Assembly (NCBI GenBank): GCA_016699205.1
Contig: CP064964.1
Coordinates: 240,001 to 272,000 of the forward strand
From: Candidatus Saccharimonadota bacterium
GTDB taxonomy: Bacteria > Patescibacteriota > Patescibacteriia > 2-12-FULL-60-25
Reading direction: 5' to 3'
DNA: 32,000 nt
Positions 5,990 through 32,000 of this stretch are shown here, in pieces. The translations under genes and the position numbers were made by a program. The notes under the pieces are model-generated. The model was not told where the DNA came from. It did not search any database and saw only the letters and a list, made by a program, of their open reading frames with translations. How positions within the stretch are numbered: the first letter of the stretch is position 1; each line of letters starts with the position of its first letter.

Positions 5990-6005
5990 AGCGGATAGAC
6001 TGCCT

Positions 6006-13551: not shown

Positions 13552-13554
13552 AGA

Positions 13555-14895: not shown

Positions 14896-14901
14896 AAGAC
14901 C

Positions 14902-14910
14902 ATTATAGCA
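14902..14910 (-). promoter_or_regulatory. extended -10 promoter element (TGcTATAAT), possibly giving a leaderless transcript
   Basis: The minus strand reads gttgTGcTATAATggtcttATG. TATAAT is a perfect match with a TG extension. The A of the ATG is the 7th nt after the -10. No convincing -35. Confidence 0.4.
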
Positions 14911-14915
14911 CAACA

Positions 14916-14943
14916 AAAAATCCCCCGCATCCGGGGGATTTTT
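14916..14943 (-). terminator. rho-independent terminator after secF (A-tract/T-tract flanked, potentially bidirectional)
   Basis: aaaaatccccc / gcatcc / gggggattttt forms an 11-12 bp stem starting 1 nt after the secF TAA. Confidence 0.7.
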
Positions 14944-14944
14944 C

Positions 14945-15851: not shown

Positions 15852-17903
15852 TTATTTCTTTCCAGAAGCAAGGAATAGCCACGGCCATTTTGCGAGCGGC
15901 GTCTTGGCCAAGGCACGCAATACCGTACGCGTGGTAACCGTAGCCGTGAACAAAGAGATGACGGTACCGAGCGCGAGCGTGAGAGCGAAACCCTTGATCA
16001 ATGACGAGGAGAACCAGAACAAGACGGCACAGGAGATCAGAATCGAGACGTGACCGTCGCGAATCGAGGTCCAGGCGCGCTTGAAGGCTTCTTCCAAGGC
16101 CGGCTCAAGCGCGAGTCCTGACTTCAATTCTTCCTTGAGACGCTCAAACACGAGCACGTTTGAGTCGATCGCCATACCGATCGAGAGAATGAAGCCGGCG
16201 ATACCGGAAAGCGTGAGCGTAATCGGTACAAGCTTGAAGGTGGCGGCGTTCAAGGCGGCGTAGATCACAAGCACGACAACGGCAGCCATACCCGGCAAGC
16301 GGTAGATCAGGATAGCGAAGATCGCGATCAAGAGGAATGCCACGAGTCCGGCGTTAATCGACTTGGTTAGCGAGTCTGCACCGAGCGTCGGGCCGACGGA
16401 TTGCTGGGCGACGAGCGTAATCGGCACTGGAAGCGCACCTGCCTGCAAACGGCGGGCAAGAAGCTTGGCTTCCTCGAGCGTGAAGTTACCTGTAATCACG
16501 GCGCGACCGCCGAGAATCTCCTGGTTCACAACCGGGGCCGAGAGCACGTTTCCGTCGAGGAAAATCGCGACCTGCTGGCCAACGTTTTTCTTCGTAAGTT
16601 CAGCAAACAACTTGCTACCCTCGTCATCAAATTGGAGCGAGACCTGGATGGAGCCGAGCTGTTGGTCAAAATCGACCTTCGCTGACTGCAGCTGCTTGCC
16701 GGTCAAAGCGGTGGCTTTCCACTCATCAACAGGAACGAAGTCGGTTGGAACGGAGCGGTTGATTTCAATCAAACGCAAGCGAGGTTCCTTGCTGATGCGC
16801 TCACCGAGTTTCCAGACGAGGTGATAACCGAATTCTGTTTCAATGACTTCGGAAATGGTTCCGGAAGCCTGGGCAAAGACTGGCGTCTCGAATTTTTCTA
16901 CCATGTCGCCCGTTCCGAACCAGCCAAGGTCACCCTTTGTTGACGTGGCGTTTGGTTCATCGGAGTTGGCAGCGACGAGGCTGTCGAAGTTTTCAATCGT
17001 GGCCTGCTTTTTAATGTCTTCGATTTTTGCTTTAGCTTCTTCTTTGGTACGCGTTGAGAGACCGCCCTGAGCACCCTGATATCCGATCAGCATGTGGTGC
17101 GCGTTCACTTCTTTCGGACCGTCCTTCAATTCTTCCATCTTTACAACGAGATAGACATTGTCGGTTTCAACGACATTCGGGAACACGGCGCCTGGCGCGA
17201 GACCGCCGACGGTGTCGAGAAGATCCTGCAAATCCTTGCTACCAGCGATGGTCGCTGCAGACAAAGCACCCGTGTCTCCCCCGTCAATTTTACGAGCGGC
17301 GTTTTCTGTTTTGTTCTTGGCGAGTTCCGCAAAATCCGTTTCCGGCTTTCTTGCTTCATCCAAAATAGCCTTGGCACGGGCAAGAGCATCCGTATTGCGC
17401 TTATCCATCTCATCCTGCTCTTCTTTGGTGAGTGGACGCGGTTTTTCCGTGTTCTTTTCCTTGAACTCAAGGATCGGCGTTTCACCGATAAGTTTGATAG
17501 CCTGGTTGACGTCGCGGATACCGGCGAGCTCCACGTTTACGCGCCATGCATCACCAGCTTGCGTAACCTGGATAACCGGCTCGGAAACGCCAAGCGAGTT
17601 GACGCGGCGCTCGATCACATCGCGGACGCCATCCATGGCTTCACGCTGTTCTGACGGCGCAACCTTGGAAACATCAGCCTCATATTCAAGCGAGGTTCCG
17701 CCCTGAAGATCAAGGCCGAGGACGAATGGCTTGTTGATCGTCGGAATATTGAGACCCGTGAGTTCGTTGACTTGGCCAACGACCCAGTTAGCAGGACCCG
17801 GGTAGGAAAGAGACCCTGCGGCAAGCAGAAGCAAGGCGAGCCAACCGAGGCGCGACATGACTGTTTTGCGGGAGGGCGTGGTTTGTCGGTTCATTCGAGA
17901 CAT
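15852..17903 (-). CDS. secD: protein translocase subunit SecD with an inserted PrsA/SurA-like chaperone plus parvulin PPIase module
   Basis: SecD motifs LGLDLQGGTSLEYE, IGETPILEFKE, VAIFLDGNVLSAPVVNQEILGGRAVITGNFTLEEAKLLARRLQAGALP and GMAIDSNVLVFERLKEE are present. A parvulin-like block lies between the P1 segments: HHMLIGYQG...GDLGWFGTGDMVEKFETPVF...EFGYHLV. Confidence 0.9.
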   Translation of the reverse strand: MSRMNRQTTPSRKTVMSRLGWLALLLLAAGSLSYPGPANWVVGQVNELTGLNIPTINKPFVLGLDLQGGTSLEYEADVSKVAPSEQREAMDGVRDVIERRVNSLGVSEPVIQVTQAGDAWRVNVELAGIRDVNQAIKLIGETPILEFKEKNTEKPRPLTKEEQDEMDKRNTDALARAKAILDEARKPETDFAELAKNKTENAARKIDGGDTGALSAATIAGSKDLQDLLDTVGGLAPGAVFPNVVETDNVYLVVKMEELKDGPKEVNAHHMLIGYQGAQGGLSTRTKEEAKAKIEDIKKQATIENFDSLVAANSDEPNATSTKGDLGWFGTGDMVEKFETPVFAQASGTISEVIETEFGYHLVWKLGERISKEPRLRLIEINRSVPTDFVPVDEWKATALTGKQLQSAKVDFDQQLGSIQVSLQFDDEGSKLFAELTKKNVGQQVAIFLDGNVLSAPVVNQEILGGRAVITGNFTLEEAKLLARRLQAGALPVPITLVAQQSVGPTLGADSLTKSINAGLVAFLLIAIFAILIYRLPGMAAVVVLVIYAALNAATFKLVPITLTLSGIAGFILSIGMAIDSNVLVFERLKEELKSGLALEPALEEAFKRAWTSIRDGHVSILISCAVLFWFSSSLIKGFALTLALGTVISLFTATVTTRTVLRALAKTPLAKWPWLFLASGKK

Positions 17904-20130: not shown

Positions 20131-20282
20131 ATGTCTTAGTCACGCATCATGGTCATTGTAAATAATGACCAGTTAGGCGTGAACGTTAGGAAATAATTAT
20201 GTTTATGATGCGTGTTTATGTATAAAACAAGCCCGATCATCCAGATCGAGCAATGGCAAGAGGATAGCAGAATGAACAGAGG

Positions 20283-20311
20283 TTGACAAGATTGGGTTTT
20301 TGGCTTAGGTT
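20283..20311 (+). promoter_or_regulatory. candidate sigma70-type promoter for the GC-rich gene
   Basis: A perfect TTGACA (20283-20288) is followed by a 17-nt spacer and a weak -10 TAGGTT (20306-20311). Confidence 0.3.
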
Positions 20312-20386
20312 GGAGCACTGTCCTTCCCAAGGGCAAGCCGATCCGGCGGTAACCGGATGTACCTTTAAAGGAGAGAGAAGATCAAG

Positions 20387-21331
20387 ATGAAGCCCGCACT
20401 CCCGACCCAGATCCCCCTCTGCGGCCGCCGTCCCCCCGTCATCGGAGCGCTCATCAACGCGATGCAGCTGCATCAGCGCCCCTTCGTCCTCATGATGCAG
20501 GAGGAGGATCGGCACGAGCTCGTCGGAACCATCAAGATGATGGCCGAGCGACTCGGACTCGTCCCCTTCCTCATCGCGGCGGATGACACCGCCACGCAGG
20601 AGCTGTACCTGCTCGACAAGGAGAGACATCTGCTCGTGATCGTGGAGACGCCCCAGTCGCGTATCCCGATCGGGATGCAGCAGTTCATCCTCGAGCGGTA
20701 CGAGCCGCCGGCGCGGAACGAGCACAAGATCGCCAAGCGCATGCGCGATGGCGCATCGCAGCGAGAGATCCAGGACAGCATCCCCAAGGCGCATCCGCCG
20801 GCAGGACTGCTCGTCGTCACCGACACCGATCCGGGCGAGCTGCTCGTGCAGAATCTCTGGACGAAGCCGTTCACCGAGCTCAAGCAGTACACGGTGCTCT
20901 GGGACAAGATGCCGCAGCGTCCCGACGCCTACACCGGCATCTTCCGTGCCGGCCTCACGCTCGCGGCTCGCGAAGCCAAGATCACGCTCGACGGCCGCGT
21001 CGACGAGGAAGCGGTGGCGCGGTACGCCCGGGTGCAGAAGATCCTCGCGAGCCACGCCCGCAAGGCCAGGGAGCGCGGAATGAGCCTCCAGGCACATCAG
21101 AACGCCGCCGAGGTCCTCGACGCGGCGCGAGACTGCGTTCTCTACATCAGCCACAAGGCGGATCGGCGGATCGACACCAACGTGATCGAGGCGCTGGTCT
21201 TCAAGGGGGTCACGGAGTCCGCCATCAAGACGACCTTCGGGCTCGCGGAGCGCCACAGCGCGCGCAAGTCGCGGCCGAGCTTCGGTCCCGACGCGCCGTT
21301 CATCGGCAAGTCCATCGCCGTCGGCGAGTAG
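20387..21331 (+). CDS. hypothetical protein (314 aa), GC-rich, compositionally foreign
   Basis: The plus-frame translation has normal protein-like composition. A purine-rich SD-like block AAAGGAGAGAGAAG lies 6-19 nt upstream. Third codon positions are almost all G/C. A strong terminator follows. The overlapping 339-aa minus ORF is R/L/G/D/H-rich and looks like an antisense shadow. Confidence 0.7.
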   Translation: MKPALPTQIPLCGRRPPVIGALINAMQLHQRPFVLMMQEEDRHELVGTIKMMAERLGLVPFLIAADDTATQELYLLDKERHLLVIVETPQSRIPIGMQQFILERYEPPARNEHKIAKRMRDGASQREIQDSIPKAHPPAGLLVVTDTDPGELLVQNLWTKPFTELKQYTVLWDKMPQRPDAYTGIFRAGLTLAAREAKITLDGRVDEEAVARYARVQKILASHARKARERGMSLQAHQNAAEVLDAARDCVLYISHKADRRIDTNVIEALVFKGVTESAIKTTFGLAERHSARKSRPSFGPDAPFIGKSIAVGE

Positions 21332-21469: not shown

Positions 21470-21493
21470 ATGTTGCCTGTGTTTAGGCAACAT
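21470..21493 (+). promoter_or_regulatory. perfect 9-bp inverted repeat overlapping the ATP-grasp start codon
   Basis: atgttgcct / gtgttt / aggcaacat. The right arm includes the first two bases of the ATG at 21492. It could be an operator palindrome or a translation-occluding hairpin. Confidence 0.4.
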
Positions 21494-22382
21494 GTGTACA
21501 AGCGTGAGGCGCACCTTGGAAAATACGATACTCATACTCACACATGAGAAAGATGATTGCGCTAAGCTGGTCATTCAGCAACTTGAACGCATGAGCGCAG
21601 ACTTCGTGCGCTTCAACACGGAGCGTTTTCACACCGAAGTCAAACTATCCCTGAGGCTCGACAAGGACGGACGCAGCGAAGGCAGTTTCCTCTTCCCTGA
21701 TCGACGCGTACGCATGCCTCATGTAGGCGTCGTCTGGAACAGGCGCGTCCATCTACCTGAACTCCCGAAGCTATTTCCAGATGAGCCCGAGCTCCAGGAA
21801 TGGATGCTCGAGGAAACCAAGTGGGCCTTCAGCATCGCGATCACGATGTTGAAATGTCCTGTGGTAAATCCCTGGGAAGACAACGAGCGTCTCAAGTTCA
21901 ACAAGATGCTCCAGATGCGGAGAGCCGCCGAACTTGGATTCGAGATCCCCGCAAGTATCCTCACCGACGAGCCCGAGGCCATCCGGCAATTCTGGGACGA
22001 AGGCGGGGGCGAAATCATCATGAAAAAGATTCGTAAGGGCCTGATTCACATGAAGAGCGGGAGGCGCGTCCTCTTTCACACGAGTCGCATTCCTCCTGAG
22101 GTGCAGACGAACGCCGCTCTGGAACGCCTGCGATTCACACCGAATCTCATGCAGACGCACATTCCCAAAAAGTGATGCATTCTGTCAGTGGTCGTCGGTG
22201 ACCAGGTCTTCACGGTCGCGATCCATTCACAAGACGTACCTGAAGGTAAGATCGACTACCGTACAGCCGGCCTGCTGGGCAAGGCGCGTGAAATGAAACA
22301 CGAGATCATTGATCTCGGTCGCGAGGCCAACGAGCGCCCCTCACTTTATTTCCTTGAATCCAAGATGCTGGTATGCGGGTAG
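21492..22382 (+). pseudogene. MvdD/MdnC-type ATP-grasp (graspetide / ribosomal peptide maturase-like), with an in-frame TGA and a truncated 3' end
   Basis: ILILTHEKDD...RFNTERFHTEVKLSL...VGVVWNRRV...KMLQMRRAAELGFEIPASILTDEPEAIRQF...RFTPNLMQTHIPKK[TGA]CILSVVVGDQVFTVAIHSQD...IDYR follows the family pattern. ORFs 21492-22175 and 22188-22382 are in the same frame, separated by a single TGA at 22173-22175. The C-terminal roughly 40 aa expected after YFLE are missing. Confidence 0.65.
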
Positions 22383-23108
22383 CTGCGAAATAACGTGGTT
22401 GAGTCCCTGCCAAACAAATAAATTTTTGTCCATTTCTTCAAAAATACGCAAAGCATTTTCCATCAAACCAAAATCTCTTGCGAGATTAATGCAGACAGCC
22501 GCTTCATTAGTTACATATGGACCGTTGGTCGGTTTCTGCGCTTCAACAATTCTCTCTATTTCAATATCGACCTCAAATATCTGATCAAAATTATTAAAAT
22601 TAATTACACCAGCCTCCTGTAAATAGTCTCGAAGCACTTCAAAGCAAGCGAGGCCGCTCTCTGCAATCTGATATTGGCCACCGATTGAACCCAAGACTTT
22701 TATCAATAACTCTTTCTTTTCGATACCGATTCTTCCGTCTTTGGCGGCACCTGATAGGAAATTTAAAAACGCCCAACCTGCAAGTGCTTTTCGATCAGCG
22801 AATACCTCTATAGCCAATGAGTTAATTCTTGCAAACGATGGCTCGATATTAAAAAAATTAATTCTTTCTTTCATCGCGATATCAATGAGCACGGCCTGTT
22901 CCCCTATTCGGGATATAGAAGCGTCGAGCATCTCCTCATCATTGTTAAGCTTATCCCCCTCCAAGCAGAGGACGAATCCCCGCTCTGAGCTTTTCAAGCT
23001 GTTTTTGAATGCTATCCCTAAGTCTAAAATTTGCCGATCATCTGGGTTACGCGTGTGCTTAGTTCCAGCTAAGACGATTTCACGCCCTCCCTTTTCAAGT
23101 ACAGACAA
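22341..23108 (-). CDS. hypothetical protein (255 aa), AT-rich; possibly 5'-truncated
   Basis: This is the only long ORF in a markedly AT-rich segment. It begins with TTG. The frame stays open for 23 more codons upstream with protein-like sequence but no canonical start. IVLAGTKHTRNPDD faintly resembles the GxxH motif of the ChaN/TIKI/TraB superfamily (low confidence). Confidence 0.5.
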   Translation of the reverse strand: MSVLEKGGREIVLAGTKHTRNPDDRQILDLGIAFKNSLKSSERGFVLCLEGDKLNNDEEMLDASISRIGEQAVLIDIAMKERINFFNIEPSFARINSLAIEVFADRKALAGWAFLNFLSGAAKDGRIGIEKKELLIKVLGSIGGQYQIAESGLACFEVLRDYLQEAGVINFNNFDQIFEVDIEIERIVEAQKPTNGPYVTNEAAVCINLARDFGLMENALRIFEEMDKNLFVWQGLNHVISQLPAYQHLGFKEIK

Positions 23109-23288: not shown

Positions 23289-23376
23289 CCGGTTACCTGT
23301 GATACGATTTGTGCAGGCCCAGAGGGAATGGTTCCCGATGGAAACCTGTGCACCTTATCTCAAGTGGAGGTTCGTC

Positions 23377-24000
23377 ATGGAGAAGCTGCGTTTCTTCCTT
23401 GCGGCCGCCTTCATGGCGGCTCTCACCGGGTGTCCCACGCCCAACCCCATGCCCGACAGCGACACGGGTACGCTGCCCACTGGAGACTCCGGGCCGGACG
23501 TCGACAGCGGAACGGATCCCGTCGATGCCTACGTTCCCCCCGGGGAAGACGGCGGCGTCGACTCGGGTACGATCCCGAACGTCTGCGAAGACGTCGACTA
23601 CGTCGGCATCGAGTGCAACCTGCCGTTCGGCATGGAGTACAACCGCGACGGGTTCATCTGCGCCGACGCGATCAACAACGACCTCTGGGTCTGCGACACG
23701 TGCTCCTCGCCTGAGCGTGAGCTCACGCATGAGGAAGGCGGAATCCTGTACTCGTTCCTCCGGTTCGCTCGCGCAAACACCGGCATGTACATGCCGGCAG
23801 GAACGGCCATGGAGTTCACCTGCGGGCCGGAAGGCCGCTGCTGGCTGAACTGGCTCAACCCGGACTCCAGCTACTCGCACTGCCGCGTCAGTTTCCAGTC
23901 CGCCTCCGGCGGCATGGGATGCGACATGGCAACAACCGAATGCTGGATGCCTGGGTCTGCAACCCCGGTCGTCAGCACCGCCGCCTACGTCGGAGAGTGA
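23377..24000 (+). CDS. Cys-rich secreted lipoprotein (207 aa), GC-rich, compositionally foreign
   Basis: GGAGG lies 6 nt upstream of the ATG at 23377. Signal peptide with lipobox MEKLRFFLAAAFMAALTG|C. A D/G/P/T-rich linker is followed by a domain with 10 Cys. A terminator follows. Other ORFs in this span are frame or antisense shadows. Confidence 0.75.
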   Translation: MEKLRFFLAAAFMAALTGCPTPNPMPDSDTGTLPTGDSGPDVDSGTDPVDAYVPPGEDGGVDSGTIPNVCEDVDYVGIECNLPFGMEYNRDGFICADAINNDLWVCDTCSSPERELTHEEGGILYSFLRFARANTGMYMPAGTAMEFTCGPEGRCWLNWLNPDSSYSHCRVSFQSASGGMGCDMATTECWMPGSATPVVSTAAYVGE

Positions 24001-24029
24001 GCTCACGCTCCTCCCCGCCCCTACCTGAA

Positions 24030-24059
24030 AGCCCCCGAGTCTTGCCTGACTCGGGGGCT
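24030..24059. terminator. GC-rich hairpin between convergent genes (lipoprotein gene and giant gene)
   Basis: agcccccgagtc / ttgcct / gactcgggggct forms a 12-bp perfect stem. attcagtttct follows on the plus strand. It lies 25 nt from the giant-gene stop on the minus strand. Confidence 0.65.
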
Positions 24060-24083: not shown

Positions 24084-27000
24084 CTACGGAGCTGTACTTG
24101 TTGACACTACATTAGCTCGAAGCTGTAGCGAGCCCGGATAGACAATCCAAGGTCTACTTGTTCGGCTTGTAGAAGGTACGGGAACGGTTGGAATCGAATC
24201 CAATATATCACCCTTACACTCACTAACAGGTAGAACCAAGTTAGCTACGACGTTACTAAGTGATGAACTTGTATTGCTTCTGATGTTAGGATCTCCACCA
24301 AGAGTAGATCCCGCCCAGCAGCCACCATTTGGATGACGGACTGTTGAGGCGGTCGGGCCTACGGTGACGTCATCTGGCTGACCTCCTGTGAGACCGGCGC
24401 GGCATTCGCCAGTACACCAGCCGAAGTTGTCTTGAATCATGACACGTGGGCTAAAGCGGCAGGTGCGGATTTCTTCATCGAAACATCCGCCGACTGGAGC
24501 CAAGCCTTCGAGACAGATATCGCCAGGAGCACATTCTGAGGTAGAGCCTGGAGTGGTACAGGTGCGGTTGGTATCGCGGGAACAGCGAGGCGAGTTGGAA
24601 CAGGCAGGCAAGCCAGAGCCATCGCGAGTCGTTTGCTGCGCGCCACATGTGTACAAGTGGGCGTAGTCAAAGTAGTCGGACTGACAGGCTTCCGTGCTGT
24701 TACCGAACATCGTACGGATGTTACAGGTGTCGCGTACACCGCCGACCGTACAGTCAGTATCCTGAGAACAGGAGAGGTTGGCATTCTGTGCACAGGTTCC
24801 GATCGCCACACAGGTACCAGCACCGGCAGGACAGTCAGCGTTGGTCTGACAGGTTAATCCTGGGGTCAAAGAACATTCGCGCTGGACTCCGCAGAATGGC
24901 TTGCGGTTCTTCATGCGTGTGTCGTCGACGCGCTGGGTTGAACCATCGCCCCAATCGATCACAACTTGGCGGAGCGGCATCTGGTTATGAGCAGACCAAG
25001 CGTAGAAGCGCATGGTCGACTTGTGCGAACCGCCGCCTACGTTGATGACGCCGTCGGTTTGACCGTTGAAGGCAAAGGCATCGACGCGTGAAACAGGACA
25101 CTGACCCGGAACTGCGCAGTTACGCGTGTCCGGAGCGGCCAAACGAGGCGGACGAGGCGTGTAGTACGACATGTAGCGGAAGGTTGCTGCGCCGACACCA
25201 GATCCCGTGAAGCCGAGGAATGTCGGCGTGTACATACCGAGCGTGTGGTCGGTTGGTAACGGATGCGGACCGCTCGGATCAAGTGAACCATCCAAGCTGC
25301 GATCCGTGATGCGATAAGCGATCAAACCGCAGAATTCATCAGCCGGGTTAGGACAAATATCGATACGCGGCTGATAACCGCCGGAGTGCGTACAGATATT
25401 GTTGTCTGTATCCGGGTTGTCCGAACGATTTGGTCCGGTGTCGCTGCTGCCAGGGACGCGACAGACCGCGATCGGAGTAAAGTCTGGAGAAGGACCGGAG
25501 ACTGGAATACAGGAGTTGCGGGCGGCCACTTCTTCACCGGCAGGAAGGTTCACTTCACAAGAACCATAGGTTCCGGCGCGCGGCATTTCTACACGGCCAT
25601 CCGGGCTCGCGCGGTAGAAACAGACCTGCGTATCACGCAAACCTCCGACACAGCGACCGAGCCAGCCTGGATCCGGAGCCGCACACACCGTGGAGGCTGG
25701 GACCTCGGTGAAGTTACAGTCGCTATCCGCGCCACAGGTGTTGCGAGTTTCATCTGCTGTGAGTCCTGTTGTTGCAAACGCACTACACTTTTTGTCTGGC
25801 AAACACGTTCTTCCTTCAACACGAACCGGACAATCAAAGCTAGCGGCTTCCGGTGCGGCACAAGTTGTCGCTACGTTCGGCCCAATATTTGTCTGACATC
25901 CGAAAGCAAAGTGCGGAGCACGCCCTGCCAACTCGGTTGAAATCGGTGCTGGTAATGGGCTTGCCGTTCTGTTCCAGAATCCTGGAGAAACTTCCGTCCA
26001 GCCCACCGGGGCGCAGGCGTTAAGTAACGATGCGATTGTGCCATCTTCCTTGGTGAATGAAGGAGCCTTACAGACATCGACGCTCTCTGCACAGGAAAGC
26101 AAACGGCTGATTCCACCGCGACAGACTTTCTGCGCGATATTTTCATCTTCCGTAAGCGGCAAGGCACAGGCGCCATCGACAGAACAGGATGGCGATGCCG
26201 TCGATCCAGTAGCTTCTGGCGTACAGCGTGTTCCTTTGAACGGACCGTCGGTACAGGCACGATCAACCTTGGAGACTGGGAGGAACTGGAAGCGATAGAC
26301 GCGATAGATACGCGCGAACAAGTTGGAGAGATATGCCCACTTGTCACCCGGGACCGTGTTTGGACGATAGTAGGTCTGTGATGGCGGGGCCAAGAATGTT
26401 GGCGGATTGAGCGGCGAGAATCCGGTAATTTCCGATCCGCTCTGGAACAGCGGCTCGATGCCGGCCGGGCCCGTGTTGATTGCGCTCGAGAATGGCGAGG
26501 CGCTATCAGAATACTGGAGACCGGTTCCTGGCTCGCGGAAATCGCCACGGCGCCAGACGCGATCCGTGAAGGCGGCGTCTTGGTTGGAATTCTTACTGCG
26601 AACTTCCGCCAATTCCTTACATACGCTCGCGGTTCCGACTTCCATGTTCATGTAGATGTAACGCTGATCGCCGCCAGTGTCGCCGCCACAAGCTGAGACC
26701 CAGAAACCAACGAAGCGCCACGGACCAGCCACATTGTCTTGGGTCAAATCAGATCCGGTAGCTGTCGTATTCTCTGAACGAGATTCGAAGACGGCACGTA
26801 CAGCAAAGTATGGCTTGCTGTTTTCACAAACGCTCTGGATCGGATCGCGGCGGATATCGAGCAAACCGCGGACGATGATGTCGGTTGGCGTACCGTCTTG
26901 GCCAGCGCGCTGGAGACCAACGAATTTCTTTTGGTTGGTCGAGCGATAGTCGAGCTCCCAATACTTGATGTAACACTTAGCGTTTGGATCCGGATTTCCA

Positions 27001-30000
27001 ACGCACGAGACCTGGAACGGACGACCGCCGCGCGAGGAGTAAATACCTTCCTGTCCGCGCGTAAGATACGGGTTGTAGTTCTCGTAGAATTTATCGCGCC
27101 ATTCCGTGTCTTTTGGACGGTTTGATCCGGCATCATCGTAATTCACGCTGCCCAAGTTATCGACCCAGGCGGCCTGATATCCACATGCGATGCGGCCGTG
27201 AGGGCCCTTGATCGGATCGATCTTGAAGTACGAGATCGTGTTGTCGCTCAATCCTGATTCAAAGAACTGCGTGCGGCGTGCGCGGAATGCCGGATCGCTG
27301 CTCATATACTCACTCGTATCCTCTTCTGAGCCATCTACACTTCCGTCAACGTTGCCCGGTTTCGGTGCACCAAGCAACTGAAGCTGTTGAGCGAGGTTAT
27401 CGTCATTGGTGCGCAGGAAGTATTCACCGTATCCAGCGCCGGCGTCGACAAGGCGGATGCCGTAAGAATCGTTTTCATTGGCGCCTCCGGAAATTTCATC
27501 AAAGGACCCATCATCGTCTTGGTCATCGTCAGCCAATTCACAATCGGTGGTTGCCGTGTAATACGACTCCGGCTTTGCTCCAAAGATAGAAGCAAAGTAG
27601 TTTTGATCTTCACCAAGAATACCGCTGTTGTCGGCCGAGACCCAGTCGTCACGATAATCAATTTTTGTCATCCAACCAGCAAAGAAGCGCAGGCGGCCAC
27701 GACGATCTCCGCCAAAGATACTACCCGGACCGTGATCCCAATCATCATCACCCGCGTAATGCATATTTGCCGGTTTCACCTCTGCGTTTCCGTCACCAGG
27801 TCCGTTCTGCGGACTATTGAATTGCGAGAACGAGGTCCAGATGAAGCGGGCCTTGGTCGGCTTCTTCACCGGAGAAACACAGTAGTACTGACCGGAGTTT
27901 TGCGGCGGCAAGTAACCAGAAGTTGGTTGATAGTGGAACGAGTCTTTATCGCCAAAGAGAATTGGGGTTGGATTCCATGTCAAACATGGCTTGTTCGCCT
28001 GATCTTCACCGATAATGCGCGTTTCATCGCGCTCCAAACACTGGCCAAATACACCGCGGATGATTTCAAGCTTGTTGAATGCGACACAGCGACCGCCTCC
28101 TTCTGGCGCGCCACAAGTCTGCGCAGCATTGGAACCTTCCACGCCCTGCACAAGCTCTTGGGTTTCAGTTCCACCTGAGCTTGCAGCTGGAGCTGTGCGG
28201 CCGCCTTGCGTTTGAATCTGGAAGATGGTTGCCGGCAAGCAAGCTTGACCATCGCGAGGACCGCCCTGACAGATTCCTGGCGGAACATCTTGGGACAATG
28301 AACTGAAAAATTTGCTGAAGGCAGTTGAACCGTACTGAGCACGCTTATAGTTACAGACGCAGTCTTCTCCGAATTCACAAGTGTTGGCGCTGTTGAAACC
28401 TCCAAGCTTGCTGACTGGTTTTGGCGGATTCGTCGTGAGATCCCATTCTGTCACGTAGCTTTGACCAAATGGAGAATCTGCTTCCGGATTCACACGACAC
28501 TCGGCCGGAGGGAAGGAGTTGGTCAGAGTCGGATCGACGCGCGGATCATCGAGAGAGAAACGCGTTGAGACATTCTGGAAATTAGTGTTGTCACCGCCTG
28601 ATTTTACCGGGAGATAGCAGTTAACGACGGACTTGTTAGCAATTCCAGAGGCGAACAATTCCGTAGAGAGGTAATAACCAATGATACCTGTTCCAACATG
28701 CTGACAGAGATTCAGATCAGGATTTGCAAGCTGAACAGGCGTTCCCGTTAATGGACGGGCGTCATTAGGTCCGAAGGTAGCACGAACTCTGTACAAGCTT
28801 CCGAAACGATCAAGCGGAATTTGAACCGCTGCTGCAAGACGGTAATCAAGTGCAAAACGGTACTTGTTGTCATCGACATTGTTTGCACCTTCCGAACCTA
28901 CGCGAGCTGTTACAAGCTCAGGAATCTGGAATGTGTCCGGAACAGCGTAACCGGAGTAGTCTTTTTCACCCAAACCAACTGGACGCTCCGTATAACTTGC
29001 GATGTCGAAGAATTTACCGCGCTGCATGACGACTTCGTCCTCGGAATCGCGATCGACGTAGTTAGCGCAGAAAATTTCACCTGGGCGGTTGGTGGATTTA
29101 TCGCACAATGCCACATTGGTACAGATTTCCTTGTAGCGGCTTGTGGCAGGATCAAATACCGATTCACTTGAACGACAGCCGAGCCACTGAGCACAGTCAC
29201 GGTCAACCTTCACTTTGAGTAACACGTTAGCATCGTTTTCCTCTGCGAGAACGGCTTCACAAGCCGGATCCGTCGGGTTGCGGAAACAGTCAACAGGAAC
29301 CGTCGGTCGGAAGTCGTTGTTCTCGTACTTGTTATAGGAGGCAGCGACATTGTATTTGAGAATCGGATCCGTCATGTCGCGCATAAGCACACAGCCTTGG
29401 CCAACATCGACATTGCCCTGACAGGTCGTCTTATCGAGACGATCGTCGTTTACAAAGAAGTATGGTTTGCCCGTTCGATGAAGCGGGTCGCTTGTGTCGT
29501 TGATATCGCGGAATTCCGTACATTCCGAGGCAGAACCAGGACAGAGACCTGTCCAACCAGCCCAGATCGGATCGCCGCGCTTAGGCAACGGGAAATTACG
29601 GCCGCCTTCCAAGGCTTCCGGATAACATGGCTTGGCAGGACTTGAACCTTGTCGGAACCAGCCATCGTATTCCGCTTCCGGCAAGGTATCGAGCAGTGCG
29701 CCGTCTGCGGCGGTGAAGTCATCACCGGACAAGCGGACGCCTTGGCGGAATTCACAAACTTTGCGCTGCGGATCGCGGAAGTAGTCGTTGGCGCCGCCGT
29801 ACTTATATTCTTCACAGAATTCCTCGGATGGCTTACAGAGCGCATCGCCGTACTTGGTGATGTCATCCTTATAATAGACGGTCTGATACGACTCGATGCT
29901 GGAGCGATCAACGGAATAGACCGGCTTTCCGAAAGCGCGACAAGAGGCGTTCTCGCGCTGACAGACCTTAGACTGGTCGTACACGACGTAAATCATGCGG

Positions 30001-32000
30001 TCGCCAGCTCGCGTTGTCGTTGCGGAGCCGTATGCCGTACTTGTGACATTGAAGATCGGGACTGGCGTTGCATCGCGCTGGCTGAAGCTTTCCGCATACG
30101 GGTTTTCCGAGTTACGCGTGTCGACGAAGGCGCGGCATCCAATACCCTCTGCGCGACACAAACGCGTGAAGCGGAAGGCGTTCACTTCACGATTGAAGCG
30201 ATCGGTGTAAGCACGGCAGCCGAGCATCGCCTGCGGTTCTGCGGCACCCGTGAATGAGCGGTCACAGGAGATTGGCGTGTTCCAAGAATTCTGGATGACA
30301 AAGGCCGTGTCGCGAATGCGCTCGATGCGGACTTCATCGATAAAGGCGGCGCGGATTCCGGAGCCGGTGAGTGTCGTGATCAATGTCGAGGAAGATGCGA
30401 GGGAAGCTCCCGAGAACAAGCCGACCGTGTAACGCTGCCAATCCGTTGCTAGACGAACTTGTCCGACCTGGTTGGCGGTTGCGCCAGGCGTTGCAGAATC
30501 ACGAATACCGAAGGTCAAGGACAAATCATTGCGGCCCGCAGCCTTGGCCCAGAAGCTGACGCGATAGAGACCGTCGGATTCAGATGCAAAGTTGACGTTG
30601 GTTGCAGGCTCGCTCTCGTTCAAACGTAAGCTCTGGTCGCCGACGAGCAAGGATTCTGGCGATGCCGTACCTGCGCTAAATGCACCGCGGCCTGAACGGA
30701 AGTTTTCACTCACGAGGACCTGGGTGTTCCCGGCAGCAGAACCGGCGTAAGCACGACAAGAAGCTGCGGTAGCCGGACAAGATCGGCTCTCGCCCAAGTT
30801 AGCGTTATAGAGACACTCGCCTGTTACGGTGCTGTAATCACCACCCGTCTTGGAACAGTCGTCGCGGCTTGTGGAGCGAGAGATGCGTAATGTAACACAA
30901 TCTTCCGTCGAGAGAATCGTCTGCGAGTAATATCGGTAGTAAACATTTCCATCGCGATCGTAGAATTGGCGACAGTCTGGGTCGATACCGGTACGCCATA
31001 GACCTTCATTACAGGAAGAAGGCTCCTTGAAAGCGCCGTCTGGGCCACGCTTGGTCAAGACTTCTGGTCCCGGAGGCGTAACTCCCGATTGAGCGATGAG
31101 CGAGAATGTGCGCAATTGATAACCAGCTGTTTCCGAACCTTCCCATGTAAAGAATGTCTTACTAAGGGTAGCGCTCGGCAAGCGACAAGCGCGCAAATAG
31201 CTCCAATGTGAAGCCTGCTCCCCTCCTTCTGCGGCAGCCGCGACATTGGTGAACGCCTCACAACCAACCTGTTCTTGCGTACACTGGCGAGCTGTCGATG
31301 GAATAAAGTAGCTTGATGTAGCATCAGCAGGATCGCTAAAGCGGACATCCGGATCATTTACGAGGTCAAATGCAGCTGGCTGCTTGCGGAACTCGGCATA
31401 ACCAACACATTCCTGAGGACAGACATCATTAGATGTGAGGATAGCTGGAACTTCCGGACCGCCGGCCTTGTCTGTGTAACCCTGACAACTTGCATCGACT
31501 TGGCGGCAGACCTTTGCAAACGCGTTACAAGCGGCTGGGTCAGACGCAGCACCAGTACAATTCAAATCGTCCGGAGCGATCTTCATGTGCAAGACCGGCA
31601 AGTCACGAGCGGTACCAGCTAGATAGTTGGTAGCAAATTGACCTTCTTCAAGCTGAATCGCGTCAACGAGAGCATTGTTACCCTCGACTTCAACCACCGC
31701 GTAACGCGTTGAAGATACGGCCAAGAAGGAACATTCAAAACGGCTCCAGTTATTGTCGAGTACACGACCGGCCGTCGAAAGTTGAGGCTGCTGCTCTGCA
31801 AGACTACAACCTGAGCTCTTGTAGGCAGTCGAGAGCTCGGCCACTGGAGATTCGACCGGGGCGGCGCCAGGCGCGCTCCGCATCTGACGGACCATGATCG
31901 TTGCGAGCGGCGCAGCGCCGTTAGCACGCACCCAAGCAGAAACCGTATACAAACGGAGCGGAATCACATCGACATCCTGACGGAGACGGTTAGCAGCATC
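24084..32000 (-). CDS. giant Cys-rich extracellular protein, C-terminal 2638+ codons (5' end outside the window)
   Basis: One uninterrupted minus-strand frame runs from TAG at 24084-24086 to the window edge. The 11 codons upstream of the track's GTG at 31967 contain no stop. It contains two paralogous beta-jelly-roll/CBM-like modules, many paired cysteines and a C-terminal PKD-like WGDG...DNFGWC module. Confidence 0.85.
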   Translation of the reverse strand, partial: DAANRLRQDVDVIPLRLYTVSAWVRANGAAPLATIMVRQMRSAPGAAPVESPVAELSTAYKSSGCSLAEQQPQLSTAGRVLDNNWSRFECSFLAVSSTRYAVVEVEGNNALVDAIQLEEGQFATNYLAGTARDLPVLHMKIAPDDLNCTGAASDPAACNAFAKVCRQVDASCQGYTDKAGGPEVPAILTSNDVCPQECVGYAEFRKQPAAFDLVNDPDVRFSDPADATSSYFIPSTARQCTQEQVGCEAFTNVAAAAEGGEQASHWSYLRACRLPSATLSKTFFTWEGSETAGYQLRTFSLIAQSGVTPPGPEVLTKRGPDGAFKEPSSCNEGLWRTGIDPDCRQFYDRDGNVYYRYYSQTILSTEDCVTLRISRSTSRDDCSKTGGDYSTVTGECLYNANLGESRSCPATAASCRAYAGSAAGNTQVLVSENFRSGRGAFSAGTASPESLLVGDQSLRLNESEPATNVNFASESDGLYRVSFWAKAAGRNDLSLTFGIRDSATPGATANQVGQVRLATDWQRYTVGLFSGASLASSSTLITTLTGSGIRAAFIDEVRIERIRDTAFVIQNSWNTPISCDRSFTGAAEPQAMLGCRAYTDRFNREVNAFRFTRLCRAEGIGCRAFVDTRNSENPYAESFSQRDATPVPIFNVTSTAYGSATTTRAGDRMIYVVYDQSKVCQRENASCRAFGKPVYSVDRSSIESYQTVYYKDDITKYGDALCKPSEEFCEEYKYGGANDYFRDPQRKVCEFRQGVRLSGDDFTAADGALLDTLPEAEYDGWFRQGSSPAKPCYPEALEGGRNFPLPKRGDPIWAGWTGLCPGSASECTEFRDINDTSDPLHRTGKPYFFVNDDRLDKTTCQGNVDVGQGCVLMRDMTDPILKYNVAASYNKYENNDFRPTVPVDCFRNPTDPACEAVLAEENDANVLLKVKVDRDCAQWLGCRSSESVFDPATSRYKEICTNVALCDKSTNRPGEIFCANYVDRDSEDEVVMQRGKFFDIASYTERPVGLGEKDYSGYAVPDTFQIPELVTARVGSEGANNVDDNKYRFALDYRLAAAVQIPLDRFGSLYRVRATFGPNDARPLTGTPVQLANPDLNLCQHVGTGIIGYYLSTELFASGIANKSVVNCYLPVKSGGDNTNFQNVSTRFSLDDPRVDPTLTNSFPPAECRVNPEADSPFGQSYVTEWDLTTNPPKPVSKLGGFNSANTCEFGEDCVCNYKRAQYGSTAFSKFFSSLSQDVPPGICQGGPRDGQACLPATIFQIQTQGGRTAPAASSGGTETQELVQGVEGSNAAQTCGAPEGGGRCVAFNKLEIIRGVFGQCLERDETRIIGEDQANKPCLTWNPTPILFGDKDSFHYQPTSGYLPPQNSGQYYCVSPVKKPTKARFIWTSFSQFNSPQNGPGDGNAEVKPANMHYAGDDDWDHGPGSIFGGDRRGRLRFFAGWMTKIDYRDDWVSADNSGILGEDQNYFASIFGAKPESYYTATTDCELADDDQDDDGSFDEISGGANENDSYGIRLVDAGAGYGEYFLRTNDDNLAQQLQLLGAPKPGNVDGSVDGSEEDTSEYMSSDPAFRARRTQFFESGLSDNTISYFKIDPIKGPHGRIACGYQAAWVDNLGSVNYDDAGSNRPKDTEWRDKFYENYNPYLTRGQEGIYSSRGGRPFQVSCVGNPDPNAKCYIKYWELDYRSTNQKKFVGLQRAGQDGTPTDIIVRGLLDIRRDPIQSVCENSKPYFAVRAVFESRSENTTATGSDLTQDNVAGPWRFVGFWVSACGGDTGGDQRYIYMNMEVGTASVCKELAEVRSKNSNQDAAFTDRVWRRGDFREPGTGLQYSDSASPFSSAINTGPAGIEPLFQSGSEITGFSPLNPPTFLAPPSQTYYRPNTVPGDKWAYLSNLFARIYRVYRFQFLPVSKVDRACTDGPFKGTRCTPEATGSTASPSCSVDGACALPLTEDENIAQKVCRGGISRLLSCAESVDVCKAPSFTKEDGTIASLLNACAPVGWTEVSPGFWNRTASPLPAPISTELAGRAPHFAFGCQTNIGPNVATTCAAPEAASFDCPVRVEGRTCLPDKKCSAFATTGLTADETRNTCGADSDCNFTEVPASTVCAAPDPGWLGRCVGGLRDTQVCFYRASPDGRVEMPRAGTYGSCEVNLPAGEEVAARNSCIPVSGPSPDFTPIAVCRVPGSSDTGPNRSDNPDTDNNICTHSGGYQPRIDICPNPADEFCGLIAYRITDRSLDGSLDPSGPHPLPTDHTLGMYTPTFLGFTGSGVGAATFRYMSYYTPRPPRLAAPDTRNCAVPGQCPVSRVDAFAFNGQTDGVINVGGGSHKSTMRFYAWSAHNQMPLRQVVIDWGDGSTQRVDDTRMKNRKPFCGVQRECSLTPGLTCQTNADCPAGAGTCVAIGTCAQNANLSCSQDTDCTVGGVRDTCNIRTMFGNSTEACQSDYFDYAHLYTCGAQQTTRDGSGLPACSNSPRCSRDTNRTCTTPGSTSECAPGDICLEGLAPVGGCFDEEIRTCRFSPRVMIQDNFGWCTGECRAGLTGGQPDDVTVGPTASTVRHPNGGCWAGSTLGGDPNIRSNTSSSLSNVVANLVLPVSECKGDILDSIPTVPVPSTSRTSRPWIVYPGSLQLRANVVSTSTAP

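What the first reader, a model, noticed from the sequence alone, without database searches (positions are those of the whole stretch)
24084..32000. Giant Cys-rich secreted protein continuing beyond the window
A single minus-strand frame covers 7.9 kb and is still open at position 32000, so the true gene is larger. The translation has no TM helices in the visible part. It is very rich in Cys, often in closely spaced pairs, and in Gly, Asp, Asn, Thr and Pro. It contains lectin/CBM-like and PKD-like modules. At the C-terminus I see no LPXTG, PEP-CTERM or other sorting signal that I recognise. The last roughly 70 codons are noticeably more AT-rich than the rest. Its composition is otherwise host-like. 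In a reduced genome, spending this much coding capacity on one extracellular protein suggests a key interaction function such as adhesion to a host or prey cell, or to a matrix or polysaccharide. Its anchoring and secretion route are unexplained.
Basis: partly seen in the sequence, partly recalled or inferred. Interest (0 to 1): 0.7.

Follow-up and report, generated by a model that had tools for sequence, protein, structure and literature searches.

The report
Uhrbacteria signature giant disulfide-rich surface protein
The window holds the last 79% of a ~3,340-residue exported protein, held together by about 64 disulfide bonds, that is conserved in single copy across the candidate phylum Uhrbacteria next to a small membrane partner. 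It probably acts as their sugar-binding cell-surface scaffold, but no function has been shown.

Summary
Window 24084-32000 (-) is one intact 2,638-codon frame that runs off the window. It has 4.06% Cys, no TM helix and a truly AT-rich 3' end. A 94%-identical orthologue (3,342 aa) supplies the missing ~700 residues, which start with a Sec signal peptide. The gene belongs to a large unnamed family found only in Ca. Uhrbacteria/Patescibacteria: 1,275 clusters at 50% identity, 2,700-4,460 aa, about one copy per genome. 123 of 128 Cys are at least 90% conserved. The mature Cys count is even in 105 of 107 members, and there are no heme or zinc motifs, so the cysteines form about 61-78 disulfides. 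dN/dS is 0.054. Only two CBM4/9/16/22-type jelly-rolls are recognisable. The C-terminal 1,200 aa fold confidently (pLDDT 76, pTM 0.66) yet match nothing in PDB or BFVD. New findings are a co-oriented ~200-290 aa membrane partner with TSP3 Ca-binding repeats directly upstream (52 of 53 loci, both subfamilies), an invariant C-terminal strand RPW[IV]V[YF]xG[SA]xQL, and an adjacent VanW-HSP20 unit. The most likely role is a partner-tethered, glycan-binding surface scaffold for attachment. That role is inferred, not shown.

The parts
24084..32000 (-). C-terminal 2,638 codons plus stop of the giant gene. The first ~702 codons, including the signal peptide, lie beyond position 32000.
   Evidence: Open frame. 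94% identical to the 3,342-aa P0001 over 100% of the visible part. dN/dS 0.054.
31626..32000 (-). C-terminal part of jelly-roll module 1 (CBM-like), cut by the window edge. Boundaries approximate.
   Evidence: hhalign CBM1 vs CBM2 gives 91% probability, E 1e-6. Modelled as a beta-sandwich with pLDDT 80-90 in the P0001 tile. Among the least conserved stretches of the family.
30738..31625 (-). Cys-hairpin block 2, with units such as CRQVDASCQGY, CTQEQVGCEAF and CPATAASCRAY, plus a beta-rich domain. Boundaries approximate.
   Evidence: Motif C-x5-6-C-x-[AGTS]-[FYLW] occurs 6 times against 0.41 in shuffles. All Cys here are 100% conserved. pLDDT 80-90.
30303..30740 (-). Jelly-roll module 2, CBM4/9 type.
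   Evidence: Pfam CBM_4_9 at aa 479-526, E 2e-3 here and down to 3.8e-8 in relatives. Profile hit to CBM4 of laminarinase 16A (1GUI), E 1.8e-4. For the N-terminal tile that contains both jelly-roll modules, Foldseek finds CBM16/CBM4/CBM22 at E ~4e-6, TM 0.57-0.69; which module carries the match was not resolved.
29013..30302 (-). Cys-hairpin block 3 (CRAEGIGCRAF, CQRENASCRAF and others). Boundaries approximate.
   Evidence: hhalign of hairpin block 1 (outside the window) against block 3 gives 80% probability, E 1.5e-5. Cys invariant.
27687..30320 (-). Conserved core used as the family profile (window aa 561-1438).
   Evidence: The profile finds 1,275 clusters at E <= 1e-3 and 851 at E <= 1e-30 among 1.84 billion representatives.
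27201..27803 (-). Variable, acidic, indel-bearing patch (window aa ~1400-1600).
   Evidence: Highest dN (0.08-0.17), saturated dS and 10 gap columns against the orthologue. Family conservation 0.15-0.4 with 62% gaps.
24087..27686 (-). C-terminal 1,200-aa body: mixed alpha/beta then Cys-dense beta modules.
   Evidence: AF2 model has mean pLDDT 76.1 and pTM 0.66. No significant match in PDB (best E 0.27) or BFVD (best E 0.068).
24912..25145 (-).
   Evidence: Strands at model residues 848-925, pLDDT about 80-90. No Pfam PKD hit and no significant Foldseek hit.
24120..24155 (-). Invariant C-terminal closing-strand motif RPWIVYPGSLQL, followed by an 11-residue tail.
   Evidence: Present in 114 of 120 members, with P, W and G 100% conserved. 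Beta-strand at model residues 1185-1190, block pLDDT 92. The second subfamily has the variant DPW[VI]x[YF][DN]Gx[IV]x[VI].
24087..24296 (-). Last 70 codons, with depressed GC and GC3.
   Evidence: GC 0.452 and GC3 0.314. Recurs in closer orthologues only: z < -1.5 in 13 of 42.
24030..24059 (.). 12-bp GC-rich hairpin between the giant gene and the convergent lipoprotein gene. Candidate bidirectional terminator.
   Evidence: Terminator-like scan. This is a consensus match only.

Best explanation
This is the signature giant envelope protein of Candidatus Uhrbacteria (Patescibacteria). Shown: it is a ~3,340-aa protein with an N-terminal Sec signal peptide. Its roughly 128 cysteines are almost all conserved and even in number, so they are paired as about 64 disulfides. 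It is single-copy, vertically inherited and under strong purifying selection. It is essentially non-repetitive. It contains two homologous CBM4/9/16/22-type jelly-rolls, which are its least conserved modules. It ends in an invariant beta-strand. It is always preceded on the same strand, 0-30 nt away, by a small single-pass membrane protein with two thrombospondin-type-3 Ca-binding repeats. Inferred: the pre-protein is exported unfolded through Sec (YidC and SecDF are encoded nearby). It is oxidatively folded outside the membrane by the MdbA/VKOR-type system common in CPR bacteria. It is held at the cell surface by non-covalent, probably Ca-dependent, binding to the membrane partner. There it serves as a rigid scaffold that presents the variable jelly-rolls to polysaccharide on a host cell or matrix, giving attachment.
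For: Signal peptide MNHRPFSQRILIAILGFLAAVVVVGSPLATHKAYA|IP in the 94% orthologue, with equivalent signal peptides in nearly all full-length members. Cys: 123 of 128 are >= 90% conserved; the count is even in 105 of 107 mature proteins; there is no CxxCH or CxxC and His is 0.6%. dN/dS is 0.054. Family size and restriction: 180 and 191 hits, all named ones Uhrbacteria or Patescibacteria; 165 loci in species-representative genomes, about one per genome; 1,275 clusters at 50% identity. CBMs; they coincide with conservation minima. Partner: 52 of 56 and 52 of 53 loci, with a TM helix and DxDxDGxxD motifs; Pfam TSP3_bac up to 32 bits; also present in second-subfamily loci L082 and L083. Compact fold: pTM 0.66 for 1,200 aa. 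Envelope context: a VanW (cell-wall associated) and HSP20 unit is adjacent in 50-51 of 53 loci, and YidC and SecDF lie within 8 kb in the window. CPR bacteria encode MdbA-like oxidoreductase with VKOR (10.1101/335083). Large Cys-rich exported proteins were proposed as attachment factors in Peribacteria (PMC4736985).
Against: No experiment or expression data exist for any member. Surface retention and partner binding are inferred from gene adjacency only. Uniform strong purifying selection and non-repetitive architecture are atypical for host-range adhesins, which usually vary fast and are built of tandem repeats. The window copy's CBM scores below Pfam's cut-off, and glycan binding is not shown. 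About 90% of the protein has no recognisable fold, so an unrecognised enzymatic or other activity cannot be excluded. The N-terminal ~320 aa are modelled with low confidence. Uhrbacteria have no cultured member and no known host.
Confidence: 0.5

Rival explanations
1. It is a structural envelope or S-layer-like protein. The giant protein, tethered by its partner, builds or supports the cell's own outer layer. Its jelly-rolls bind the cell's own wall polysaccharide rather than a host.
For: It is lineage-wide, single-copy and vertically inherited, with uniform dN/dS of 0.054 and conserved synteny among housekeeping and cell-wall genes (VanW, YkuD, DacA and BacA in the window). The predicted body is compact (pTM 0.66). 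CPR cells are reported to have a distinctive envelope without an outer membrane (10.1101/335083, citing Luef 2015).
Against: Pfam finds no SLH or other known S-layer anchoring domain. By general knowledge, S-layer proteins are usually smaller, Cys-poor and poorly conserved. No lattice-forming evidence exists. The CBM modules are the most variable parts, which fits an external, changing ligand better than a self ligand.
Confidence: 0.25
2. It is a secreted degradative enzyme or effector. One or more unrecognised catalytic or membrane-active domains, for example the conserved alpha-rich domain at P0001 ~365-505 or the helical N-terminal region, attack host wall polysaccharide or membrane. The CBMs serve as targeting modules, as in glycoside hydrolases, binary toxins and Cry protoxins.
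For: CBM4/9/16/22 modules normally accompany glycan-active enzymes. Foldseek also matches the CBM-like receptor-binding domains of CDTb/Ib and the Cry1A protoxin. The alpha-rich domain has invariant polar residues (N437, K440, R442, R445, E452, N460) and pLDDT 81-90. Giant genes in predatory bacteria have been linked to wall degradation (10.1101/2023.11.21.568195).
Against: No catalytic family was detected by Pfam, NCBIfam, PDB sequence profile or Foldseek. There is no polymorphic C-terminal toxin pattern; the C-terminus is the most invariant motif. A dedicated membrane partner argues for retention on the cell.
Confidence: 0.15
3. It is a pseudogene, an assembly collapse or a chimeric ORF.
For: The ORF is truncated by the window edge. 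One 200-aa patch is highly divergent from the closest orthologue.
Against: The frame is uninterrupted for 2,638 codons. Orthologues of matching length and collinear sequence occur in more than 160 genomes from independent assemblies. dN/dS is 0.054. There are no tandem repeats that could collapse.
Confidence: 0.01

Closest known systems
Large cysteine-rich exported proteins of Peribacteria (CPR), Anantharaman et al. 2016, PMC4736985
   Same: CPR bacterium with a small genome. Very large proteins with signal peptides, high Cys content and almost no annotation. Proposed to act in attachment. No experimental function.
   Different: The Peribacteria proteins are a multi-gene set (20 proteins, a 14-gene cluster, mean 1,655 aa, 7.2% Cys) and are described as a major source of strain variation. 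This protein is a single-copy, ~3,000-4,400 aa, 3.5-5% Cys orthologue under strong purifying selection, with a dedicated membrane partner. Sequence relatedness could not be tested because their sequences were not at hand. There is no hit to the Myxococcus Cys-rich repeat model that they weakly resemble.
Tandem-repeat giant bacterial adhesins (Embp, SiiE/LapA-type RTX adhesins, Mobiluncus 51-Ig adhesin; PMC9302970, PMC10619420; Apilactobacillus Giant1-5, PMC12863079)
   Same: Multi-thousand-residue extracellular proteins that take up about 1% or more of a small genome. Thought to mediate surface or cell contact. Some are stabilised by intramolecular cross-links.
   Different: Those adhesins are strings of dozens of near-identical Ig-like or other repeats, with LPXTG, T1SS or similar anchoring. 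Here there are no tandem repeats (TRF none; hhalign finds only two related region pairs), no LPXTG, a compact predicted body and about 64 disulfides.
CBM4/CBM9/CBM16/CBM22 carbohydrate-binding modules (Pfam CBM_4_9, PF02018)
   Same: Two modules share the beta-jelly-roll fold and sequence signature. They match 1GUI by profile and CBM16 2ZEW/2ZEY by structure (TM 0.65-0.69).
   Different: They make up under 10% of the protein. They are not attached to any recognisable glycoside hydrolase. Ligand and binding-site residues are unknown, and the window copy is below Pfam's gathering score.
Thrombospondin signature domain / cellulosomal dockerin-type Ca-binding repeats (analogy for partner-giant tethering; my own knowledge, not tested)
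   Same: The partner carries two DxDxDGxxD TSP3 repeats (Pfam TSP3_bac). In thrombospondin such repeats wrap a lectin-like jelly-roll, and in dockerins related Ca loops mediate non-covalent tethering of large extracellular scaffolds.
   Different: No cohesin or thrombospondin C-terminal domain was detected in the giant protein. The interaction is purely hypothetical.

Membership tests
Pfam CBM_4_9 (PF02018) jelly-roll carbohydrate-binding module | Sequence match to the family HMM at or above the gathering score (25.9 bits) | tested here: inconclusive
   The window copy scores 18.9 bits (E 2e-3), below the cut-off. The orthologue P0001 scores 24.7 and P0066 scores 29.3. 11 of 13 members match, best E 3.8e-8. 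The family profile hits CBM4 1GUI at E 1.8e-4.
Pfam CBM_4_9 (PF02018) jelly-roll carbohydrate-binding module | Beta-jelly-roll fold superposable on solved CBM4/16/22 structures | tested here: met
   Foldseek gives E 4e-6 to 1e-4, probability 1.00 and TM (target) 0.57-0.69 to 2ZEW, 2ZEY, 3OEB, 4BJ0 and 4XUP. This was modelled on the 94% orthologue.
Pfam CBM_4_9 (PF02018) jelly-roll carbohydrate-binding module | Binds a carbohydrate ligand | not testable with these tools
   Needs a glycan array or ITC on the recombinant module.
   No PKD family at E <= 1 in the window protein or at E <= 0.1 in orthologues. The beta-sandwich at model residues 848-925 has no significant Foldseek match, best overall E 0.27.
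Sortase-anchored (LPXTG) or exosortase (PEP-CTERM) surface proteins | C-terminal sorting motif followed by a hydrophobic helix and a basic tail | tested here: not met
   No LPXTG in the window protein or P0001. Only 1-9 residues follow the conserved C-terminal motif (11 in the window copy) and there is no hydrophobic segment.
Tandem-repeat giant adhesins (Bap/Embp/RTX-adhesin type) | Body made of many tandem homologous domains | tested here: not met
   TRF finds no DNA repeats. Among 55 region pairs, hhalign relates only CBM1 to CBM2 and hairpin block 1 to block 3.
S-layer proteins with SLH or other known anchoring domains | SLH or another recognised S-layer or cell-wall-binding domain | tested here: not met
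   No such Pfam or NCBIfam domain was found. Lattice formation is not testable here.
Multi-heme cytochromes / metal-binding Cys proteins | CxxCH heme motifs or CxxC metal/redox motifs | tested here: not met
   Zero CxxCH and zero CxxC in four members. His is 0.6-0.9%.
Myxococcus cysteine-rich repeat (NCBIfam TIGR02232) and Rhs/YD or other polymorphic toxin families | HMM match | tested here: not met
   NCBIfam gives no family at E <= 0.1 for P0001 and P0066. Pfam gives none apart from CBM_4_9.
Sec-dependent secreted proteins | N-terminal signal peptide: basic n-region, hydrophobic h-region and AxA cleavage site | tested here: met
   Seen in P0001 and in nearly all full-length members of both subfamilies, by inspection only because no predictor was available. 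The N-terminus of this copy lies outside the window.

The most novel reading that the evidence does not exclude
The partner-plus-giant gene pair encodes a previously unrecognised, phylum-wide cell-surface apparatus of Uhrbacteria. It would be either their host-contact or holdfast device or the main building block of their envelope. It would be made largely of protein folds with no solved or viral-predicted relative, stapled by about 64 disulfides, and tethered through a Ca-dependent TSP3-repeat membrane anchor instead of any known sorting system.
Probability: 0.25. Interest if true: 0.8.

Novelty: new variant of a known kind. Interest (0 to 1): 0.6.

Why it matters
Patescibacteria (CPR) are a large part of bacterial diversity and are thought to live attached to other cells. 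Outside Saccharibacteria type IV pili, the molecules that make contact are almost unknown, and Uhrbacteria have no cultured member and no known host. This work defines a single conserved locus, costing about 1% of the genome, that can be recognised by a simple signature. The signature is a signal peptide, 122-156 paired Cys, two jelly-rolls, a terminal RPWxV[YF]xG strand and an upstream TM/TSP3 partner. The locus is present in hundreds of species. It gives a concrete target for metaproteomics, cryo-ET labelling, glycan-binding assays and host prediction. It is also a rich source of unexplored protein folds. If the partner-tether idea holds, it would be a new way of keeping a giant protein on a monoderm-like cell surface.

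Tried and rejected
1. Pfam, NCBIfam and PDB sequence searches with the single sequence and with a 13-member profile found nothing beyond CBM_4_9 and 1GUI. The weak hits (3TW5 transglutaminase elicitor, E 0.09; 3HDI, E 3.4) were judged to be chance.
2. Foldseek of the C-terminal model against PDB and BFVD gave no hit at E <= 0.001. The faint heparin-lyase, legume-lectin and sulfite-oxidase Ig echoes were not used.
3. Elapor1 (9VQM; Cys-rich by my own knowledge, not shown in the tool output) matched the N-terminal tile at E 1.5e-4 but with TM 0.09-0.13. It is noted only as a possible generic resemblance.
4. The heme or metal hypothesis for the cysteines was rejected.
5. The tandem-repeat adhesin model was rejected. 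My first hhalign screen printed nothing because of a parsing error; it was redone.
6. The AT-rich 3' end as a conserved functional signal was rejected. It is present in only about a third of orthologues and coincides with the most variable, indel-prone tail.
7. The downstream Cys-rich lipoprotein as a conserved partner was rejected. It is present in L001 but replaced by unrelated genes in L002-L004.
8. Literature searches for a description of this family found none.
The middle ~900 aa (window aa ~530-1438) was therefore never modelled.
Full report
THE OBSERVATION. The minus-strand frame from position 32000 down to the stop codon at 24084-24086 is open for 2,638 codons and is still open at the window edge. 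The translation has 4.06% Cys (107 residues). It is rich in G, A, S, T, D and P. It has no TM-like stretch; the best 19-residue hydropathy mean is 1.23. Neighbouring cysteines 6-7 residues apart occur 23 times against 6.8 +/- 2.5 in shuffles. A hairpin-like unit, C-x5-6-C-x-[AGTS]-[FYLW] (for example CRAEGIGCRAF), occurs 6 times against 0.41 expected. The last 70 codons have GC 0.452 against a mean of 0.545 (lowest 0.3% of windows) and GC3 0.314 against 0.546. Gene GC (0.545) matches the window (0.536). There are no tandem DNA repeats.

ORGANISM AND CONTEXT. The window's other genes are housekeeping and envelope genes of a small-genome bacterium. They include NusA, YidC, SecD (with an inserted parvulin PPIase), SecF, a VirD4-like ATPase, BacA, YkuD, a D-Ala-D-Ala carboxypeptidase, MnmA, a short AlaRS, and ribosomal proteins S13 and S11. 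Every named homologue of the giant protein comes from Candidatus Uhrbacteria or unclassified Patescibacteria, apart from one partial hit labelled Candidatus Magasanikbacteria. The NCBI lineage is Patescibacteria group > Parcubacteria group > Ca. Uhriibacteriota. Chromosome-scale contigs that carry a homologue are 1.0-1.5 Mb. The gene therefore costs about 1% of the genome.

THE FULL GENE. P0001 is 94% identical over the whole visible part and is 3,342 aa long. About 702 residues are missing from the window. P0001 starts with MNHRPFSQRILIAILGFLAAVVVVGSPLATHKAYA|IP, which is a basic n-region, a hydrophobic core and an AxA site. Nearly all full-length relatives have an equivalent signal peptide. 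This was judged by inspection, because no signal-peptide predictor was available. The locus of P0001 (L001) is syntenic with the window.

A LARGE, CLOSED, UNNAMED FAMILY. The first search found 180 relatives of 3,300-3,900 aa, all labelled 'hypothetical'. A scan of one genome per species found 165 loci, essentially one per genome; the apparent doubles are split genes or mixed bins. An exhaustive profile search with the in-window core (aa 561-1438) found 1,275 clusters at 50% identity with E <= 1e-3, and 851 with E <= 1e-30. About 37 of these are the window's own subfamily (3,400-4,460 aa). A much larger second subfamily (2,700-3,300 aa) keeps the signal peptide, 3.5-5% Cys, the position of the core, and a variant of the same C-terminal motif. 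Named members of the second subfamily are also Uhrbacteria or Patescibacteria. The two subfamilies lie in rearranged versions of the same genomic region (KsgA-GroESL-MamF-RF1 lies next to the gene in L082 and L083, and 6 kb from it in L002). This suggests orthology rather than paralogy, but I did not prove it.

THE CYSTEINES ARE DISULFIDES. In an alignment of 107 full-length members, some only about 33% identical, 123 of the 128 Cys of P0001 are at least 90% conserved and all are at least 79% conserved. The number of Cys in the mature protein is even in 105 of 107 members, with a range of 122-156. There is no CxxCH and no CxxC motif, and His is only 0.6%. This pattern fits about 61-78 structural disulfides and rules out heme or zinc sites. 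CPR bacteria commonly encode an MdbA-like extracytoplasmic thiol oxidoreductase next to VKOR (10.1101/335083), so the chemistry is plausible. I did not look for those genes in this genome.

SELECTION AND ARCHITECTURE. Against the L001 orthologue, dN/dS is 0.054 at dS 0.55, and it is low in every 100-codon block. Only window aa ~1400-1600 diverge fast and carry indels. The gene is functional; it is not a pseudogene or an assembly collapse. Region-against-region profile comparison relates only the two jelly-rolls (91% probability, E 1e-6) and two of the Cys-hairpin blocks (80%, E 1.5e-5). Everything else is unique sequence.

WHAT IS RECOGNISABLE. Pfam finds only CBM_4_9, at window aa 479-526. 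It is sub-threshold here (18.9 bits against a 25.9 cut-off), but it matches in 11 of 13 relatives with a best E of 3.8e-8. NCBIfam finds nothing. The family profile hits one PDB entry convincingly, the CBM4 of Thermotoga laminarinase 16A (1GUI, E 1.8e-4). An AF2 model of P0001 aa 36-1235 has pLDDT 65 and pTM 0.35. It matches CBM16, CBM4, CBM22 and a porphyran-binding CBM at TM 0.57-0.69 (E about 4e-6). It also matches the CBM-like receptor-binding domains of CDTb/Ib toxins and Cry1A protoxins. The jelly-rolls coincide with conservation minima of the family: 0.35-0.51 against 0.56-0.68 in the flanks. It has no Pfam PKD hit and no significant structural match.

WHAT IS NOT RECOGNISABLE. The model of the C-terminal 1,200 aa, built from the window's own sequence, is fairly confident. 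Mean pLDDT is 76.1, 853 residues score at least 70, and pTM is 0.66. That pTM argues for a packed body rather than beads on a string. Yet it has no hit at E <= 0.001 in 350,542 PDB chains (best E 0.27, TM below 0.2) or in the BFVD viral library (best E 0.068). The first ~320 mature residues lie outside the window. They are Cys-poor (0.6%), rich in Ala, Phe and Ile, and carry near-invariant motifs (GQIAYDAANY..GGKGQ, DAAGEFIGSLS). They are predicted as long helices with low confidence. A well-predicted alpha-rich domain follows at P0001 ~365-505 (pLDDT 81-90) with invariant polar residues. Its function is unknown.

THE C-TERMINUS. 114 of 120 members end in R-P-W-[IV]-V-[YF]-x-G-[SA]-[LIV]-Q-[LI], with P, W and G 100% invariant, followed by only 1-9 residues. 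The window copy reads RPWIVYPGSLQL plus an 11-residue tail, slightly longer than that range. In the model this is a beta-strand with block pLDDT 92. There is no hydrophobic helix or basic tail, so it is not an LPXTG or exosortase-type signal. It looks like a closing strand of the last domain. Whether it also docks onto another protein is unknown. The low GC3 of the last 70 codons recurs only in closer relatives (z < -1.5 in 13 of 42) and overlaps the most indel-prone tail. I treat it as a clade-level drift feature.

THE CONSERVED PARTNER AND NEIGHBOURHOOD. In 52 of 56 loci with a complete gene and upstream flank, a 220-290 aa ORF on the same strand ends -26 to +33 nt from the giant gene's start. 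By tblastn it is present in 52 of 53 loci. It has an N-terminal TM helix and two thrombospondin-type-3 repeats, for example DTDRDGLSDYSE...DTDSDGIPD. Pfam TSP3_bac scores 22-32 bits and is above the cut-off in 2 of 4 tested. These are followed by a Cys pair, an S/T/P-rich linker and a small conserved helical C-terminal domain. Second-subfamily loci have the same partner 1-6 nt upstream. In the window's subfamily, a VanW-(small ORF)-HSP20 unit lies next to the pair in 50-51 of 53 loci. That unit flips orientation as a block (33 on the minus strand, 18 on the plus strand), so adjacency is kept through inversions. The partner gene itself lies beyond position 32000 and cannot be seen in this window. 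Downstream genes are not conserved.

MECHANISM: SHOWN AND INFERRED. Shown by the data: the protein has a Sec-type signal sequence, paired conserved cysteines, and lineage-wide single-copy conservation under purifying selection. It has two CBM-fold modules that are its most variable parts. It is non-repetitive, has a compact C-terminal body, an invariant terminal strand, and an always-adjacent co-oriented membrane protein with Ca-binding repeats. Inferred: (a) export through Sec, with YidC and SecDF encoded nearby, and oxidative folding outside the membrane; (b) retention at the surface through the membrane partner, by analogy with Ca-dependent TSP3 or dockerin-type tethering; (c) presentation of the jelly-rolls to a polysaccharide on a host cell or matrix, giving attachment; (d) possibly, HSP20 as a cytoplasmic holdase for the 350-kDa pre-protein, which is pure speculation from adjacency. 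I put about 0.85 on 'exported, disulfide-bonded extracytoplasmic protein with glycan-binding-type modules'. I put about 0.5 on the full tethered-attachment-scaffold model.

RIVALS. (1) A structural envelope or S-layer-like role (0.25). It fits the uniform conservation and the housekeeping and cell-wall context better than a classical adhesin does. However, no S-layer anchoring domain is present and the variable CBMs suggest an external ligand. (2) A degradative enzyme or effector with unrecognised catalytic or membrane-active domains (0.15). CBMs usually accompany enzymes, and the alpha-rich domain has invariant polar residues, but no catalytic fold was found and a membrane partner argues for retention. 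(3) A pseudogene or artefact (0.01), which is effectively refuted.

COMPARISON WITH WHAT IS KNOWN. The closest described kind is the set of large, Cys-rich, signal-peptide-bearing proteins of Peribacteria. These were proposed to act in attachment and were noted as a source of strain variation (PMC4736985). This family differs in being a single conserved orthologue with a dedicated partner. It differs from tandem-repeat giant adhesins (PMC9302970, PMC10619420, PMC12863079) in having no repeats and no known anchor. The survey of giant bacterial genes (10.1101/2023.11.21.568195) mentions CPR only in passing and does not describe this family. I found no paper describing it. Databases call it 'hypothetical protein' or, once, 'CBM-cenC domain-containing protein'.

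VERDICT. This is a real, intact and strongly constrained gene. It encodes the signature giant disulfide-rich exported protein of Uhrbacteria, with a previously unnoted membrane partner and mostly unrecognisable folds. I class it as a new variant of a known kind (giant extracellular proteins of small-genome symbionts), with interest 0.6. Function remains inferred.

LIMITS. There is no signal-peptide predictor, no AFDB search, no complex prediction and no expression data. About 900 aa of the visible protein were not modelled. The N-terminal model is of low confidence. Taxon labels come from record titles only, and many TPA records carry a generic 'uncultured Gammaproteobacteria' label that conflicts with all informative labels.

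Noticed in passing
window 23377-24000 (+): The gene convergent with the giant gene is a ~207-aa Cys-rich lipoprotein (MEKLRFFLAAAFMAALTGC..., lipobox LTGC) with no Pfam hit. The overlapping minus-strand ORF 23293-24006 is spurious. The lipoprotein is conserved in L001 but replaced by unrelated genes in more distant genomes.
   Followed up: partly
window 21492-22382 (+): The MvdD-like ATP-grasp gene (pre-ATP-grasp domain, E 1e-15) has an in-frame TGA at 22173-22175. Homology to the L001 orthologue continues after it in the same frame, and the last ~60 codons are missing. It is probably a decaying gene or a base error. The NUDIX gene that follows it in L001 is absent here.
   Followed up: partly
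window 15852-17903 (-): SecD carries a parvulin-type PPIase (Rotamase, E 1e-27) inserted between its first P1 subdomain and the P1 head. A translocon-coupled foldase of this kind could matter for exporting very large proteins such as the giant one. I do not know how widespread this fusion is.
   Followed up: no
window 11398-15000 (-): A VirD4/TrwB-type coupling ATPase with a treble-clef zinc finger (717 aa) is followed by a 481-aa ORF with no Pfam hit. This is probably part of the Patescibacteria type IV secretion system described as homologous to monoderm conjugation machinery (PMC12102498).
   Followed up: no
window 22001-23108: A low-GC patch (0.463 against about 0.54) covers a 255-aa ORF (22341-23108, -) with no Pfam hit. 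It is 70% identical to the 281-aa gene of L001.
   Followed up: partly
window 20387-21331 (+): The real gene here is on the + strand (93% identical to the 297-aa gene of L001, no Pfam hit). The longer minus-strand ORF 20237-21256 is spurious. High GC gives many long shadow ORFs throughout this window.
   Followed up: partly
window 4169-6025 (-): The alanyl-tRNA synthetase is only 618 aa. It has the catalytic and second additional domains but no long C-terminal region, a typical CPR-style reduction.
   Followed up: no
L001 6671-9210 and equivalents in 50-51 of 53 loci: A VanW-(72-83 aa ORF)-HSP20 block stays adjacent to the partner-giant pair but flips orientation as a unit (33 minus, 18 plus). 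It is absent next to the second-subfamily genes (L082, L083). It may be functionally linked (cell-wall factor plus holdase) or merely conserved gene order.
   Followed up: partly
L005 and L009 (assembly JALNYW01): One MAG holds two different copies of the giant gene, at 82% and 49% identity to P0001, the first on a 7.8-kb contig. This is probably a mixed bin rather than true paralogy.
   Followed up: no
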